In this document: piece by piece, positions 33,001 through 36,000 of the stretch
How the letters are laid out: the number at the start of each line of letters is the position of its first letter
Position numbering within the stretch: the first letter of the stretch is position 1
From: a virus
Strand: one strand, 5' to 3'
UHGV virus genome: UHGV-0007115
Length of the DNA stretch: 43,204 nt
Made by a program: the position numbers

Positions 33001-36000
33001 TGCTGAAGGAAAGAAATATTGAAACGGTTCTTGAATTTAGAGCTGAAAATCGATCAGCGAAAACTGCACAGTGATCAAACAGGCCGCTTTCGCGGCCTTG
33101 TTTTTAACGAATGCCACCGCCACCCGGGCGGGAATCCGCAGAACGCCCACCGCAGCGGGAGCCGTCAGCAGCAGTGTCGCTGTCGTGCTGACAACGACCG
33201 GCAAAGGCCTGAGTTGAAGCTACCAGAGACAACAAAACGAACAGTGCAGCAAATGCTTTTTTCATTGTGAAATTTCCATCTATAAGCCACCTCAATGTGG
33301 CGTCAATGAGTGTAGCACTGACTTTTGTTTCGTCCATAAAAAACTACTATGCAGGCTTTTTGGATTTGTACGAATAATCCCACGGATAAACATTTCTACT
33401 AAGTGGAGCTGTATTAGTTCGTTCATGAAATAATTTTGTGAAATTCAATACGGAATCCATCCAAACTTTTGCGTTAGCTTTGGTGTGTGCGGGCGGGTCC
33501 CAATAAGCTAGTAAGGCTGCATCTCTTATTTCATTGACTGCATATATGAGATATGCGTTACTGGTTGGTTTTGGCCTGTAATTTCCTTGTTCATCAATCA
33601 ATCCATATGACCACTCATCCCAACACTGTTCAGTACATGAGTATGAATATGATGCATATTCACCAATATTGACATGAACCTTTCTGAGATGGAAGCCTAA
33701 TACTTCGTCTGGTCTTTCAAAAAGAGTATCTTTTCCCAGATCAGGATGATGACCATGACGCCAGTGTTGTTTAAAAGCATCTTTTAGCGAAATCAGAAAG
33801 TCATCAGTTTTAAACTCACCAGTAGGTATAACCTTCCCGCTATACTCACTCAAAAACATCGAATTCCTCTTCCTTCATATGCGTTTCTAATGAGTTAAGC
33901 TGGCGGAAAGATATCTCTTTTGATTCTGCAGATGAGAGCTTTTTTATCCGCTTGATATTCTTTGTGATAGGAATAGACATTGTATGCACATCAGCGGATG
34001 CTCTTGGCTTTGTGCTGATAAAAATATGGCGCAATGCCGCATTTTCACTATTGAACGAGCCAATAGCTGATTTACGTGCTACAACCTTACCAGTAAAAAT
34101 ACGACTCTTGCTACGCTTTGCATGAGTTCCGCTTCTTACCGGACCTCTCATCACGAATCCAAGTTTTGTCATCTTTAATCTCCGGTAAGTTACAGGTATA
34201 AAATAAAAACAGGTTTACCTTTAAGGTAATAGTACGCTATTCACCCCCGGTCTGCAATCTGTACAGAATTATTTAAAGGCACATCCCTGTGCCGCCGCCC
34301 GTCAGAAGAATCCTGCTTTGTCGTTGATGTACTCCGCGTGGGTCTGGATATCACGCAGGCATTTGCTCACACCGACGATGTAGCAGAACATGGTGGTCAG
34401 CTCCGCCGCCGCGCCCGATACATCGTGCCCGTCTTCCTGTAACTGGTTCAGCAGATTCATCAGCAGTGAGTTCTCCGTCAGGCCGAGAACACCAGACGGA
34501 GAATGAATCAGGCTACGGTAGCCGGGCTTCAGCGGGGCGCTGTAGGTTTTGTTCTCTATCTTCATTGCCTGCATCACTGCTGATGCTGTGGCGTTGGCTA
34601 CCTGGTCGGCAACCATCTTTATGCGTTCTTCCTGCGGGAGCGAGTTTTTAATGTAACTTCCGGTGCGGCGGATCTGAGGAAGAACCTCACCTGTAACCCA
34701 TTCAAGAAATCTGAATGCTCTCGTTCCCTCAGTCATTGCCTCTTTGCAACGCAGAATAAGGATGTAGAGACCTGATTCTGAAACGATGGATAGTTCTTGT
34801 ATTCCACCAGGGGTCTGTATTGAATACAGCCCCTTTTTGTTCCAGCCTTTTTTATCAAGTTTTCTCGCTTGTGTAACATCAATATTCAAAGCATTGCACA
34901 CATCTTTGGTGACAAACCAAGGTTCTCCGTCAATCATGAACATACGGATCTGGCAGGATGACTCAAAGGAAAAGATGGAAGGTTTGGTATTCATGGCGAT
35001 CACCTTTGTAGTTAGGTTAATCACCACCGCTGAGACCAATCAGATGGTGGTGAACTGTGCAGAGTTGGTCTTACCGGCTACAAAGGAACCCGGCGCACCT
35101 TTCGGTGCCCCCACACAGCCCACCATAGAATAGGTGCGCTTTACACATAAAAAAACCGCTTATGCGGCATATGTGCCTCTGTAGTAATCCGGGAGACCAA
35201 TCCCGGCACTGGATTTTGCCAGTGCCCGATTACTATGGCACAAGAGGAGTGCGATGTAAATTTACCGCAAAGGTAATGATAAACGCGGAGAAATATTAAA
35301 ATCAACCGCATTTGGTTGATTGCGTTTAACGCTTGATCACCTGAAAGCAAGATATTACCTTTAAGGTAATGTTATTGTGAGGAAAAGCAATGGAAGTTTT
35401 CTGGATAGTTGTTGGTGTTGTTACGGTGATTATTTACGTTATCAACCAGAACAGGACTAAGGTCTCTGATCGCACAGTCGTTAATCATCGCAAAACGATA
35501 AAGACCGAAGATGGAGAAATAACGATTAATCGTACACAGGTGATAGACCACACCTCCACTCAGTTTCAAAAAACTGGAGGTAATGCGCCGGATATTTCTG
35601 TACATCCTGCTTATGATATATCGGTAATCCAGACATATTATAAACAGCAGGAGTCAGCAAAAGAGAGGGCGCTGATTCAGCCAAAGCCATTTACAGCAGA
35701 GCTTCCACCTGGAGTGTCAACGCGTCCGGCATATCATGACAGATTCCCAGGTGATGACATATCGTCTCAGTTACCTAAAAAAGCTCCTCAGGTAGTATCT
35801 GAGCCAGCAAGAATACCTTCTGTATCGCCATCACAAGAAGAATCAGCTAACAGAGTTTCAAGTGGTAGTAAGCAGTGTTTGCGATGCAGAATAAACCTTC
35901 CATATGAAAAATTCAGGAAATCGTCAAAAAATCCAGATGGATTGACTAAGTGGTGTGCAAGGTGTCTCGATGGCCCAAAGAATACACGCCATATGAAGTG

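What the first reader, a model, noticed from the sequence alone, without database searches (positions are those of the whole stretch)
35148..35240. Y-shaped structured RNA element plus terminator in the leader of the antirepressor gene
Between the divergent promoter region and the bro start (34994) lies an 8-bp closing stem (35182-35189 with 35228-35235) enclosing two perfect hairpins (6-bp and 6-bp stems), followed on the minus strand by a GC hairpin and a run of seven T at 35149-35167. This is either a small RNA or an attenuator controlling the antirepressor by antitermination, by analogy with sar control of P22 ant.
Basis: seen in the sequence. Interest (0 to 1): 0.6.

Follow-up and report, generated by a model that had tools for sequence, protein, structure and literature searches.

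The report
IsrK-type leader RNA of c4 antirepressor switch

Summary
The two hairpins and the minus-strand terminator are real and strongly conserved. They match Rfam isrK (35149-35225, minus strand, 74.7 bits against a gathering score of 50). This overlaps a weaker c4-a1b1 match. This is the phage P1/P7 immI architecture, also studied as IsrK in Salmonella Gifsy-1.

- **Pairing boxes.** Two IsrK boxes (a1 35194-35201; b1 35176-35184) complement C4 (a' 35065-35071; b' 35078-35086). They recur after C4 (a2 35033-35040; b2 35003-35011, on the antirepressor ribosome-binding site). The three copies covary across 80 related loci (45 combinations).
- **Closing stem.** The 8-bp stem exists in this sequence but is not conserved (44.9% paired, 40.3% in shuffles). 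Its 5' arm lies on the conserved -10 box and just after it, upstream of the predicted RNA start. Its 3' arm overlaps b1.
- **Likely mechanism.** A leaky terminator gives a 77-nt IsrK that titrates C4. Read-through gives C4 and antirepressor mRNA, and C4 masks the ribosome-binding site.

This is an already known system, and the P22 sar analogy does not hold.

The parts
35255..35260 (-). -35 hexamer (TTTACA) of the IsrK promoter
   Evidence: Consensus scan. The first T is present in 108 of 111 unique homologs, at a fixed 17-nt spacing from the -10.
35232..35237 (-). -10 hexamer (CATAGT, preceded by TG) of the IsrK promoter.
   Evidence: The A at hexamer position 2 and the T at position 6 are invariant in 111 of 111 homologs, and an invariant G lies 7 nt downstream at 35225.
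35149..35225 (-). IsrK-type small RNA, equivalent to the a1/b1 leader of the c4 operon. Predicted length 77 nt.
   Evidence: Rfam isrK RF01394, 74.7 bits (gathering 50), model positions 1-77. Overlapping c4-a1b1 RF03163, 39.9 bits, below its gathering score of 46.7. Salmonella IsrK is 77 nt (PMC4825925).
35206..35225 (-). Hairpin 1: 7-bp stem, loop CAAAAU. Role unknown.
   Evidence: 99.7% of cells paired in 50 homologs; 5 of 7 pairs show changes on both sides.
35190..35205 (-). Hairpin 2: 5-bp stem, presenting box a1 in its loop.
   Evidence: 97.2% of cells paired.
35194..35201 (-). Box a1 (AUUGGUCU), complementary to a' in C4.
   Evidence: Coordinates. Box naming follows the phage P1 GenBank record. 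The same box recurs after C4 and its complement lies in C4, across homologs.
35176..35184 (-). Box b1 (CUACAGAGG) in the single-stranded spacer.
   Evidence: duplex -12.5 kcal/mol. It covaries with b' and b2 in 80 homologs.
35149..35168 (-). Intrinsic terminator: 5-bp stem GCCGC/GCGGU, loop AUAA, seven U. Presumed leaky.
   Evidence: hairpin -7.5 kcal/mol. Every listed homolog shows a GC hairpin followed by a T-run; 83.4% of cells paired, with changes on both sides at 3 of 5 pairs.
35228..35235 (-). It is promoter DNA (-10 hexamer and the bases just after it), not part of the short RNA.
35182..35189 (-).
35043..35130 (-). C4 antisense RNA, the repressor RNA of the module.
   Evidence: Rfam C4 RF01695, 78.6 bits (gathering 45), full-length match.
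35078..35086 (-). Box b' (CCUUUGUAG) in the loop of C4 hairpin 2.
35065..35071 (-). Box a' (AGACCAA) in the single-stranded joint of C4.
35033..35040 (-). Box a2 (AUUGGUCU), target of a' in the antirepressor leader. Identical to a1.
35003..35011 (-). Box b2 (CUACAAAGG), a perfect 9-bp target of b'. It overlaps the Shine-Dalgarno sequence and ends 8 nt before the ATG.
34302..34994 (-). Bro-N domain antirepressor-type gene, the regulated target.
   Evidence: Pfam Bro-N, E = 1.8e-13. Homologs are annotated as anti-repressor or anti-immunity protein.
35262..35276 (.). Palindrome TTACC-N5-GGTAA, an operator-like site. It abuts the IsrK -35 and overlaps the -10 of an upstream promoter-like site.
   Evidence: Arms are conserved and the centre varies in relatives. 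There are 16 copies in the window against 0.66 expected, including pairs flanking a putative HTH repressor gene.

Best explanation
The element is the IsrK-type leader RNA (a1/b1 element) of a P1-type immI module in an epsilon15-like (Uetakevirus) E. coli prophage.

1. A conserved sigma-70 promoter (-35 at 35260-35255, -10 at 35237-35232) starts transcription near 35225.
2. Many transcripts probably stop at the weak terminator (35168-35149), giving a 77-nt RNA. This RNA displays box a1 in the loop of hairpin 2 and box b1 in the single-stranded spacer.
3. Transcripts that read through carry the C4 antisense RNA (35130-35043) and the antirepressor mRNA.
4. C4 is processed out in P1. It pairs through a' and b' with a2 and b2 in the leader. 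b2 covers the Shine-Dalgarno sequence of the Bro-N antirepressor gene, so translation is blocked and lysogeny is kept.
5. IsrK carries the same two boxes, so it competes for C4 or for the C4 portion of the long RNA. It acts as a decoy, and when it is abundant it turns antirepressor translation on.

Shown here: family membership, the anatomy, the promoter conservation and the three-way complementarity with covariation. Inferred from homologs: where transcripts start and end, terminator leakiness, C4 processing, and the direction of regulation.
For: **Family matches**
- Rfam isrK 74.7 bits and C4 78.6 bits, both above their gathering scores.
- Phage P1 has the same order: promoter, two hairpins, terminator-like hairpin, C4, targets, regulated gene. 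Its GenBank record annotates a1, b1, c4, a2 and b2.
- APSE-7 is annotated isrK + C4 + BRO gene (PMC7313666).

**Complementarity in the window**
- a' pairs with a1 and a2 at -9.2 kcal/mol each.
- b' pairs with b1 at -12.5 and with b2 at -12.6 kcal/mol.

**Covariation in 80 homologs that have C4**
- There are 45 distinct box combinations.
- b1 region against the C4 core (hairpin 2 plus joint, holding b' and a'): median longest Watson-Crick helix 8 for cognate pairs, 4 for non-cognate pairs.
- Leader against the C4 core: duplex energy -30.4 kcal/mol cognate, -24.2 non-cognate.
- b2 typically ends 8-11 nt before the ATG.

**Structure and promoter**
- Hairpins and terminator are 94.4% paired, with compensatory changes.
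- The -10 A and T and the G at the predicted start are invariant in 111 of 111 homologs.
- The scan found no promoter-like site between the terminator and C4, which are only 18 nt apart.

**Experiments in Salmonella Gifsy-1 (PMC4825925)**
- A 77-nt IsrK and a read-through mRNA come from the same promoter.
- IsrK supplied in trans raised antirepressor translation more than 100-fold.
- Compensatory mutants G28A/C162U and G31A/C159U fall in the positions equivalent to a1 and a'.
- A stable processed RNA of about 80 nt (STnc1160) sits downstream of IsrK.
Against: - No transcript data exist for this prophage. The start, termination efficiency, C4 processing and Hfq binding are all inferred.
- The c4-a1b1 model scores below its gathering threshold here (39.9 against 46.7).
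- In Gifsy-1 and P1 control passes through an upstream ORF (orf45, icd) coupled to the antirepressor gene. Here the ORF that begins inside C4 is 28 codons and stops 45 nt before the ATG. Its length is not conserved in homologs (3 to more than 54 codons). The details therefore differ, and direct masking of the ribosome-binding site is my inference.
- The role of invariant hairpin 1 is unexplained.
- The relative importance of decoy action in trans and folding in cis is not resolved.
Confidence: 0.85

Rival explanations
1. The a1/b1 element works mainly in cis, not as a free decoy. In the read-through RNA it pairs with the C4 segment of the same molecule, which corresponds to structure A of the Gifsy-1 study. 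This fixes the fold, the processing or the translational silence of the long transcript, and the terminated 77-nt RNA is largely a by-product.
For: - The predicted minimum-energy fold of the whole 241-nt leader pairs the IsrK boxes with the C4 region.
- In Gifsy-1 the wild-type long RNA sits almost entirely in the inactive cis-paired structure (PMC4825925).
- A conserved outer helix bracketing the terminator can form only in read-through RNA.
Against: - In Gifsy-1 the short RNA supplied in trans activated translation more than 100-fold. IsrK point mutants lost that trans activity (PMC4825925).
- A terminator is present in every homolog listed, which argues that the short form is selected.
- This reading is compatible with the main explanation rather than exclusive of it.
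Confidence: 0.3
2. C4 binding to a1/b1 on the nascent transcript increases termination at the IsrK terminator. C4 would thereby limit its own synthesis and antirepressor transcription, as CI RNA does at seqA/seqC in satellite phage P4.
For: - b1 ends only 7 nt before the terminator stem.
- The Gifsy-1 authors note that IsrK resembles P4 SeqA and raise this possibility (PMC4825925).
- The P4 mechanism itself is established knowledge, cited from that paper.
Against: - In Gifsy-1, constitutive expression of the C4-like RNA did not prevent IsrK-dependent growth arrest.
- I saw no alternative antiterminator pairing with the terminator stem in the predicted folds, and I did not search for one.
Confidence: 0.15
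3. One reading: a Y-shaped three-way junction RNA with an 8-bp closing stem acts as a sensing attenuator, and a factor-controlled choice between termination and antitermination governs the antirepressor.
For: - The closing stem is perfect in this sequence and in close relatives.
- The region folds better than shuffles.
- A transcript from the upstream promoter-like site (35305-35276) would contain both arms and is predicted to form the Y.
Against: - Closing-stem pairing across 50 homologs is at shuffle level: 44.9% against 40.3%, and 45.7% when slid by one column.
- The 5' arm is the conserved -10 region and the bases just after it, upstream of the predicted start.
- Disruptive changes in the 3' arm occur without compensation, for example GATAACTA and GTTAATGT.
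- The conservation of the 3' arm is partly explained by box b1.
Confidence: 0.05
4. A sar-like cis-antisense RNA is transcribed from the plus strand across the antirepressor leader.
For: The plus strand also folds well (-45.4 kcal/mol, z = -5.7).
Against: - The conserved promoter and the T-run are on the minus strand only.
- Both Rfam matches are on the minus strand.
- The plus-strand fold simply mirrors the same helices.
Confidence: 0.02

Closest known systems
IsrK small RNA of the Salmonella Gifsy-1 prophage (Rfam RF01394; Hershko-Shalev et al. 2016, PMC4825925)
   Same: - Full-length covariance-model match above the gathering score.
- Same 77-nt length, two hairpins plus an intrinsic terminator.
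- Sits upstream of a C4-like processed RNA and an antirepressor gene.
- The loop of hairpin 2 pairs with the downstream RNA.
   Different: - In Gifsy-1 control passes through a translated 45-codon ORF coupled to anrP. Here that ORF is 28 codons, not conserved in length, and ends 45 nt before the ATG, while box b2 lies directly on the antirepressor ribosome-binding site.
- The host phage is a different type (epsilon15-like podovirus, not Gifsy-1).
- The box sequences, which set specificity, are different.
a1/b1 leader and C4 antisense RNA of the phage P1/P7 immI operon (Rfam RF03163 and RF01695; Citron and Schuster 1990, 1992, cited from memory and from the P1 GenBank record)
   Same: - Same order: promoter, hairpin 1, hairpin 2 with a1 in its loop, b1, U-rich hairpin, C4, a2, b2 on a ribosome-binding site, regulated gene.
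- An operator for the main repressor lies next to tandem promoters. In P1 this is Oc4 with P2c4 and P1c4. Here it is a TTACC-N5-GGTAA palindrome with two promoter-like sites.
   Different: - P1 targets icd, which is coupled to ant1/ant2. Here the target appears to be the Bro-N gene itself.
- The c4-a1b1 model scores 39.9 bits here (below 46.7) and 51.0 in P1. The isrK model scores 74.7 here and 35.1 in P1. The two Rfam families therefore look like models of two branches of one element.
- No short terminated a1/b1 RNA is annotated in the P1 record.
seqA - CI RNA - seqC immunity system of satellite phage P4
   Same: A processed RNA is flanked upstream and downstream by short sequences complementary to it. 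The Gifsy-1 authors call IsrK a structural homolog of SeqA.
   Different: P4 CI causes premature transcription termination of replication genes and does not mask the ribosome-binding site of an antirepressor. This was not tested here.
sar antisense RNA of the phage P22 immI region
   Same: A small RNA that limits antirepressor synthesis in a temperate phage.
   Different: sar is transcribed from the opposite strand across the ant ribosome-binding site and is fully complementary to it. Here the regulators are on the same strand, upstream of the gene, and act through two short boxes.

Membership tests
isrK (Rfam RF01394) | Covariance-model score at or above the curated gathering score (50 bits), full length | tested here: met
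   74.7 bits, model positions 1-77 of 77, at 35149-35225 on the minus strand.
isrK (Rfam RF01394) | Two 5' hairpins followed by a Rho-independent terminator, supported by covariation | tested here: met
   94.4% of cells paired in 50 homologs, against 80.9% in shuffles. Hairpin 1 has 5 of 7 pairs with changes on both sides.
isrK (Rfam RF01394) | Own promoter, and a position upstream of a C4-like RNA and an antirepressor gene in a prophage | tested here: met
   Conserved -35 and -10. C4 lies at 35043-35130 and the Bro-N gene at 34302-34994.
isrK (Rfam RF01394) | A transcript of about 77 nt that accumulates, binds Hfq and activates antirepressor translation in trans | not testable with these tools
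   Known only from Salmonella experiments (PMC4825925).
c4-a1b1 (Rfam RF03163) | Covariance-model score at or above the gathering score (46.7 bits) | tested here: not met
   39.9 bits (E = 8e-8) at 35186-35238. P1 itself scores 51.0. The same bases are claimed by isrK above its threshold.
c4-a1b1 (Rfam RF03163) | Boxes a1 and b1 complementary to a' and b' of an adjacent C4 RNA and repeated as a2 and b2 downstream of it | tested here: met
   in the window. Three-way covariation in 80 homologs with 45 box combinations. Naming follows the P1 record.
C4 antisense RNA (Rfam RF01695) | Covariance-model score at or above the gathering score (45 bits); long closing stem enclosing two hairpins | tested here: met
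   78.6 bits, model positions 1-87 of 87. The predicted fold agrees.
C4 antisense RNA (Rfam RF01695) | Excised from a precursor by RNase P and represses translation of the downstream gene | not testable with these tools
   Known for P1/P7 from the literature, recalled from memory. Here there is only the complementarity of b' to the ribosome-binding site.
P22 sar-type cis-antisense RNA | [quoted passage not shown] | tested here: not met
   The promoter, the T-run and both Rfam matches are on the same strand as the antirepressor gene, and the element lies upstream of the ribosome-binding site.

The most novel reading that the evidence does not exclude
- That transcript would start at the upstream promoter-like site (35305-35276), whose -10 overlaps the operator-like palindrome.
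- The longer RNA is predicted to form the Y shape plus an outer helix, burying decoy box b1.
- The two promoters would then make an inactive (masked) and an active (open) form of the decoy. This would couple occupancy by the main repressor to the C4/antirepressor switch.
- The closing stem was found essentially only among close relatives with CATAGT(A/G)ATC. In that clade 50 of 52 sequences also carry the palindrome and 37 of 52 the upstream promoter-like site. Shared ancestry explains this equally well.
Probability: 0.08. Interest if true: 0.4.

Novelty: already known. Interest (0 to 1): 0.15.

Why it matters
It matters mostly as correct annotation. This epsilon15-like E. coli prophage carries a P1-type RNA switch (IsrK decoy, C4 antisense RNA, Bro-N antirepressor). 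RefSeq and the phiV10 record leave it unannotated or call it only a terminator.

The putative main repressor has a helix-turn-helix domain, and no peptidase domain was detected. The antirepressor may therefore be the route to induction, and this RNA pair the gate on it.

The survey also shows that the b box is highly variable and covaries in three places, with 45 box combinations among 80 loci. Box pairing distinguishes cognate from non-cognate partners. That fits the view that such boxes set immunity specificity between related phages, as recalled from memory for P1 and P7.

None of this changes what is known about how the system works.

Tried and rejected
- **Closing stem as a conserved RNA helix.** Rejected by the register-free cognate against non-cognate test and by pair counts on 50 homologs.
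- **My first box naming.** I first called the loop of hairpin 2 'b1' and the spacer box 'a1', and I looked for an a-type box in the hairpin 1 loop (GCAAAAUC). Only about 5 bp with C4 could be found by eye. The P1 GenBank record showed that the boxes are the hairpin 2 loop (a) and the spacer (b).
- **An orf45/icd-like coupled upstream ORF.** Its length is not conserved and it does not reach the ATG here.
- **A separate promoter for C4.** The scan found none, and the gap is 18 nt.
- **sar-like plus-strand RNA.** Rejected on promoter and terminator orientation.
- **The original P1 c4 papers (PMC312442, PMC196329).** They are not held in the library, so those points rest on the P1 record and on memory.
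- **One paper search** failed on a term that was too short.
- **The outer helix around the terminator.** The cognate against non-cognate statistic was weak (6.0 against 5.4), because most homologs share the same sequence there. Only individual variants show compensation.
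Full report
**1. What is at the coordinates**

On the minus strand the region reads, 5' to 3', as follows:
- TAGTAATC (35235-35228);
- a 7-8-bp hairpin with loop CAAAAU;
- a 4-5-bp hairpin with loop UUGGUC;
- GATTACTA (35189-35182);
- a 21-nt spacer;
- a GCCGC/GCGGU hairpin (35168-35155) and seven U (35155-35149).

It scores -43.3 kcal/mol with z = -4.5, and no shuffle folds as well. The plus strand mirrors it at -45.4 kcal/mol with z = -5.7.

**2. What it is**

An Rfam scan of 33000-37000 gave three adjacent minus-strand matches:

| Family | Coordinates | Bits | Gathering score |
|---|---|---|---|
| isrK RF01394 | 35149-35225 | 74.7 | 50 |
| c4-a1b1 RF03163 | 35186-35238 | 39.9 | 46.7 |
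| C4 RF01695 | 35043-35130 | 78.6 | 45 |

- The isrK and C4 matches were confirmed at gathering thresholds on the whole window.
- The ORF that follows (ATG 34994, 230 aa) has a Bro-N domain, E = 1.8e-13. In relatives it is annotated as anti-repressor or anti-immunity protein.
- The window is an E. coli prophage. Near-identical DNA occurs in 542 of 5,426 complete E. coli genomes, where only proteins are annotated.
- It is of the epsilon15/phiV10 type (Uetakevirus). In the phiV10 record the only non-coding feature annotated over this element is a 'putative rho-independent terminator'.

**3. Comparison with the reference systems**

*Phage P1.* The immI region (L124) has the same layout, and its GenBank record annotates every part:
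- operator Oc4 and promoters P2c4 and P1c4;
- a1 (the loop of the second hairpin) and b1 (the spacer);
- the 77-nt c4 RNA;
- a2 and b2, described as 'repression of icd ant translation', followed by icd and ant1/ant2.

Rfam finds C4 (68.8 bits), c4-a1b1 (51.0) and a sub-threshold isrK match (35.1) on P1. The isrK and c4-a1b1 models therefore look like two models of branches of one homologous element.

*Salmonella Gifsy-1.* Hershko-Shalev et al. (PMC4825925) showed the following:
- A 77-nt IsrK and a read-through isrK-orf45-anrP mRNA come from one promoter.
- The long RNA is translationally silent, because the middle of IsrK pairs with the downstream region.
- IsrK supplied in trans raises antirepressor translation more than 100-fold.
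- A stable processed RNA of about 80 nt (STnc1160) lies downstream of IsrK.
- IsrK resembles P4 SeqA.

*APSE phages.* They are annotated with isrK + C4 + a BRO gene. Their authors note that a' and b' match the region upstream of the BRO gene (PMC7313666).

**4. The pairing boxes in this window**

| Box | Sequence | Coordinates | Location |
|---|---|---|---|
| a1 | AUUGGUCU | 35201-35194 | loop of hairpin 2 |
| b1 | CUACAGAGG | 35184-35176 | spacer |
| b' | CCUUUGUAG | 35086-35078 | loop of C4 hairpin 2 |
| a' | AGACCAA | 35071-35065 | joint of C4 |
| a2 | AUUGGUCU | 35040-35033 | antirepressor leader |
| b2 | CUACAAAGG | 35011-35003 | on the Shine-Dalgarno sequence, ending 8 nt before the ATG |

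- b' pairs perfectly with b2 (-12.6 kcal/mol) and with one G-U wobble with b1 (-12.5 kcal/mol).
- a' pairs with a1 and with a2 at -9.2 kcal/mol each.

**5. Comparative test**

A pattern scan of viral contigs returned 120 loci, giving 111 unique sequences. Eighty of them have C4 after the terminator.
- The three copies of each box covary. Examples for b1/b'/b2 are CTAAAAGG/CCTTTTAG/CTAAAAGG, GCATACGG/CCGTATGC/GCATACGG and CTAGTAGG/CCTACTAG/CTAGTAGG.
- Examples for a are ATTGGCGT, ATTGGAAC and TTTGGCAG, each with the matching a'.
- In all there are 45 distinct combinations.
- The b1 region was tested against the C4 core, meaning hairpin 2 plus the joint, which holds b' and a'. The median longest Watson-Crick helix is 8 for cognate pairs and 4 for non-cognate pairs.
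- The leader against the same C4 core gives -30.4 kcal/mol for cognate pairs and -24.2 for non-cognate pairs.

This is strong evidence that the RNA-RNA contacts are the selected function.

**6. The closing stem**

Anchoring all 111 homologs on hairpin 1 shows a conserved promoter:
- -35 T(T/G)nACA, a 17-nt spacer, and -10 YATAGT.
- The A and T of the -10 are invariant in 111 of 111 homologs.
- An invariant G lies 7 nt downstream. It is window position 35225, which is isrK model position 1 and the 5' end of the 77-nt Salmonella RNA.

The 5' arm of the closing stem (35235-35228) is therefore -10 and the bases just after it, upstream of the start.

On 50 diverse homologs (alignment A1) the counts are:

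| Structure | Cells paired | Shuffled | Partners slid |
|---|---|---|---|
| Closing stem | 44.9% | 40.3% | 45.7% (one column) |
| Two hairpins plus terminator | 94.4% | 80.9% | 29-44% |

A register-free test found helices of 7 bp or more essentially only in the E. coli-like clade. There, disruptive 3'-arm variants occur without compensation. The 3' arm overlaps b1 by 3 nt.

I conclude that the Y closure is a clade-specific coincidence of a promoter element and a pairing box, and is not part of the short RNA.

**7. Mechanism**

Shown here: family membership, anatomy, promoter conservation, box complementarity and covariation.

Inferred:
- Transcription starts near 35225. A weak terminator (-7.5 kcal/mol hairpin) releases IsrK.
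- Read-through is the only evident way to make C4 and the antirepressor mRNA, because the gap is 18 nt and no promoter-like site was found.
- C4 masks the antirepressor ribosome-binding site through b' and b2, helped by a' and a2.
- IsrK competes through a1 and b1 and so relieves repression.

Unlike Gifsy-1 and P1, an intermediate coupled ORF is unlikely here. The ORF that begins at the AUG in the C4 stem is 28 codons and stops 45 nt before the ATG. Its length varies from 3 to more than 54 codons among homologs.

They are weighed in their own section.

**8. Context seen on the way**

- The palindrome TTACC-N5-GGTAA sits next to the IsrK -35 (35262-35276) and again at 35355-35369.
- It occurs 16 times in the window, against 0.66 expected.
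- Pairs of sites lie on both sides of a 194-aa HTH protein gene (6621-7205) in which no peptidase domain was detected.
- This looks like the main repressor's operator set. It parallels C1 control of the c4 operon in P1.

**9. Verdict**

The structure model, the analogy and the omission of C4 are wrong.
- The element is a member of a known, experimentally studied family, so novelty is low.

Noticed in passing
window 136-150, 6487-6501, 6549-6563, 7261-7275, 7309-7323, 7646-7660, 9609-9623, 9671-9685, 13552-13566, 13570-13584, 16764-16778, 34215-34229, 35262-35276, 35355-35369, 36474-36488, 39574-39588: The palindrome TTACC-N5-GGTAA occurs 16 times (one mismatch or none) against 0.66 expected. 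Pairs flank a 194-aa HTH_3 protein gene (6621-7205, minus strand) in which no peptidase domain was detected. Single sites sit at the IsrK promoter, after the antirepressor gene and before the tailspike gene. It looks like a dispersed operator set for the prophage's main repressor, as with C1 in P1. Arms are conserved and the centre is variable in relatives.
   Followed up: partly
window 35171-35176 with 35143-35148 (minus strand): An outer helix (GCACAU/AUGUGU) brackets the IsrK terminator hairpin and its U-run, so it can form only in read-through RNA. Variants in homologs are compensated (GCTGAC/GTCAGC, GGATGC/GCATCC, GCCGAC/GTCGGC, GTACACAT/ATGTGTAT). It is not in the Rfam isrK model. It may be a processing or stability element.
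   Followed up: partly
window 35276-35305 (minus strand): A second promoter-like site (TTGATT, 18 nt, TATCAT) lies upstream of the IsrK promoter, and its -10 overlaps the palindrome. A similar TTGnnn-N16-18-TAnnnT is present in 37 of 52 clade members. It recalls the tandem P2c4/P1c4 promoters of P1. Just upstream, at 35321-35300, is a terminator-like hairpin.
   Followed up: partly
window 36140-36415 (minus strand) and 35390-36118 (plus strand): A 91-aa ORF is 42% identical to the C-terminal third of the Bro-N antirepressor (E = 9e-16). In phiV10-like relatives the corresponding gene lies directly upstream of IsrK. Here a 242-aa cysteine-rich plus-strand ORF (weak Stc1 match, below threshold) is inserted between them, preceded by its own copy of the palindrome.
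   Followed up: partly
window 35043-35126 (minus strand): The AUG in the 5' stem of C4 opens a 28-codon ORF. It corresponds to the translated orf45 of Gifsy-1, but its length ranges from 3 to more than 54 codons in 80 homologs, so it is probably not a conserved coding feature.
   Followed up: yes
L077 (3214 plus strand, 6318 minus strand) and L082 (5937 and 7149, both plus strand): Two viral contigs carry two IsrK modules each. In L077 each has its own C4, and the box sets differ (ATTGGCGT/CTAAGTGG and ATTGGTCT/CTACAGAGG). In L082 C4 was confirmed only after the second copy. About a quarter of the IsrK-like loci (31 of 111) lack a recognisable C4 after the terminator and continue differently (CACCCTTTTTT...), so there may be another downstream partner.
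   Followed up: no
window 16365-16441 (minus strand): A tRNA-Arg (anticodon TCT) lies inside the prophage-like window, between the early region and the portal and capsid genes (Head-tail_con 17090-18769, GP7 capsid 19769-20761). An integrase gene lies at 193-1443.
   Followed up: no
window 33347-33859 and 33846-34172 (minus strand): Two ORFs lie downstream of the antirepressor gene on the same strand. The 170-aa one has a weak YafO-toxin-like match below threshold. They may be cargo genes co-transcribed with the antirepressor.
   Followed up: no
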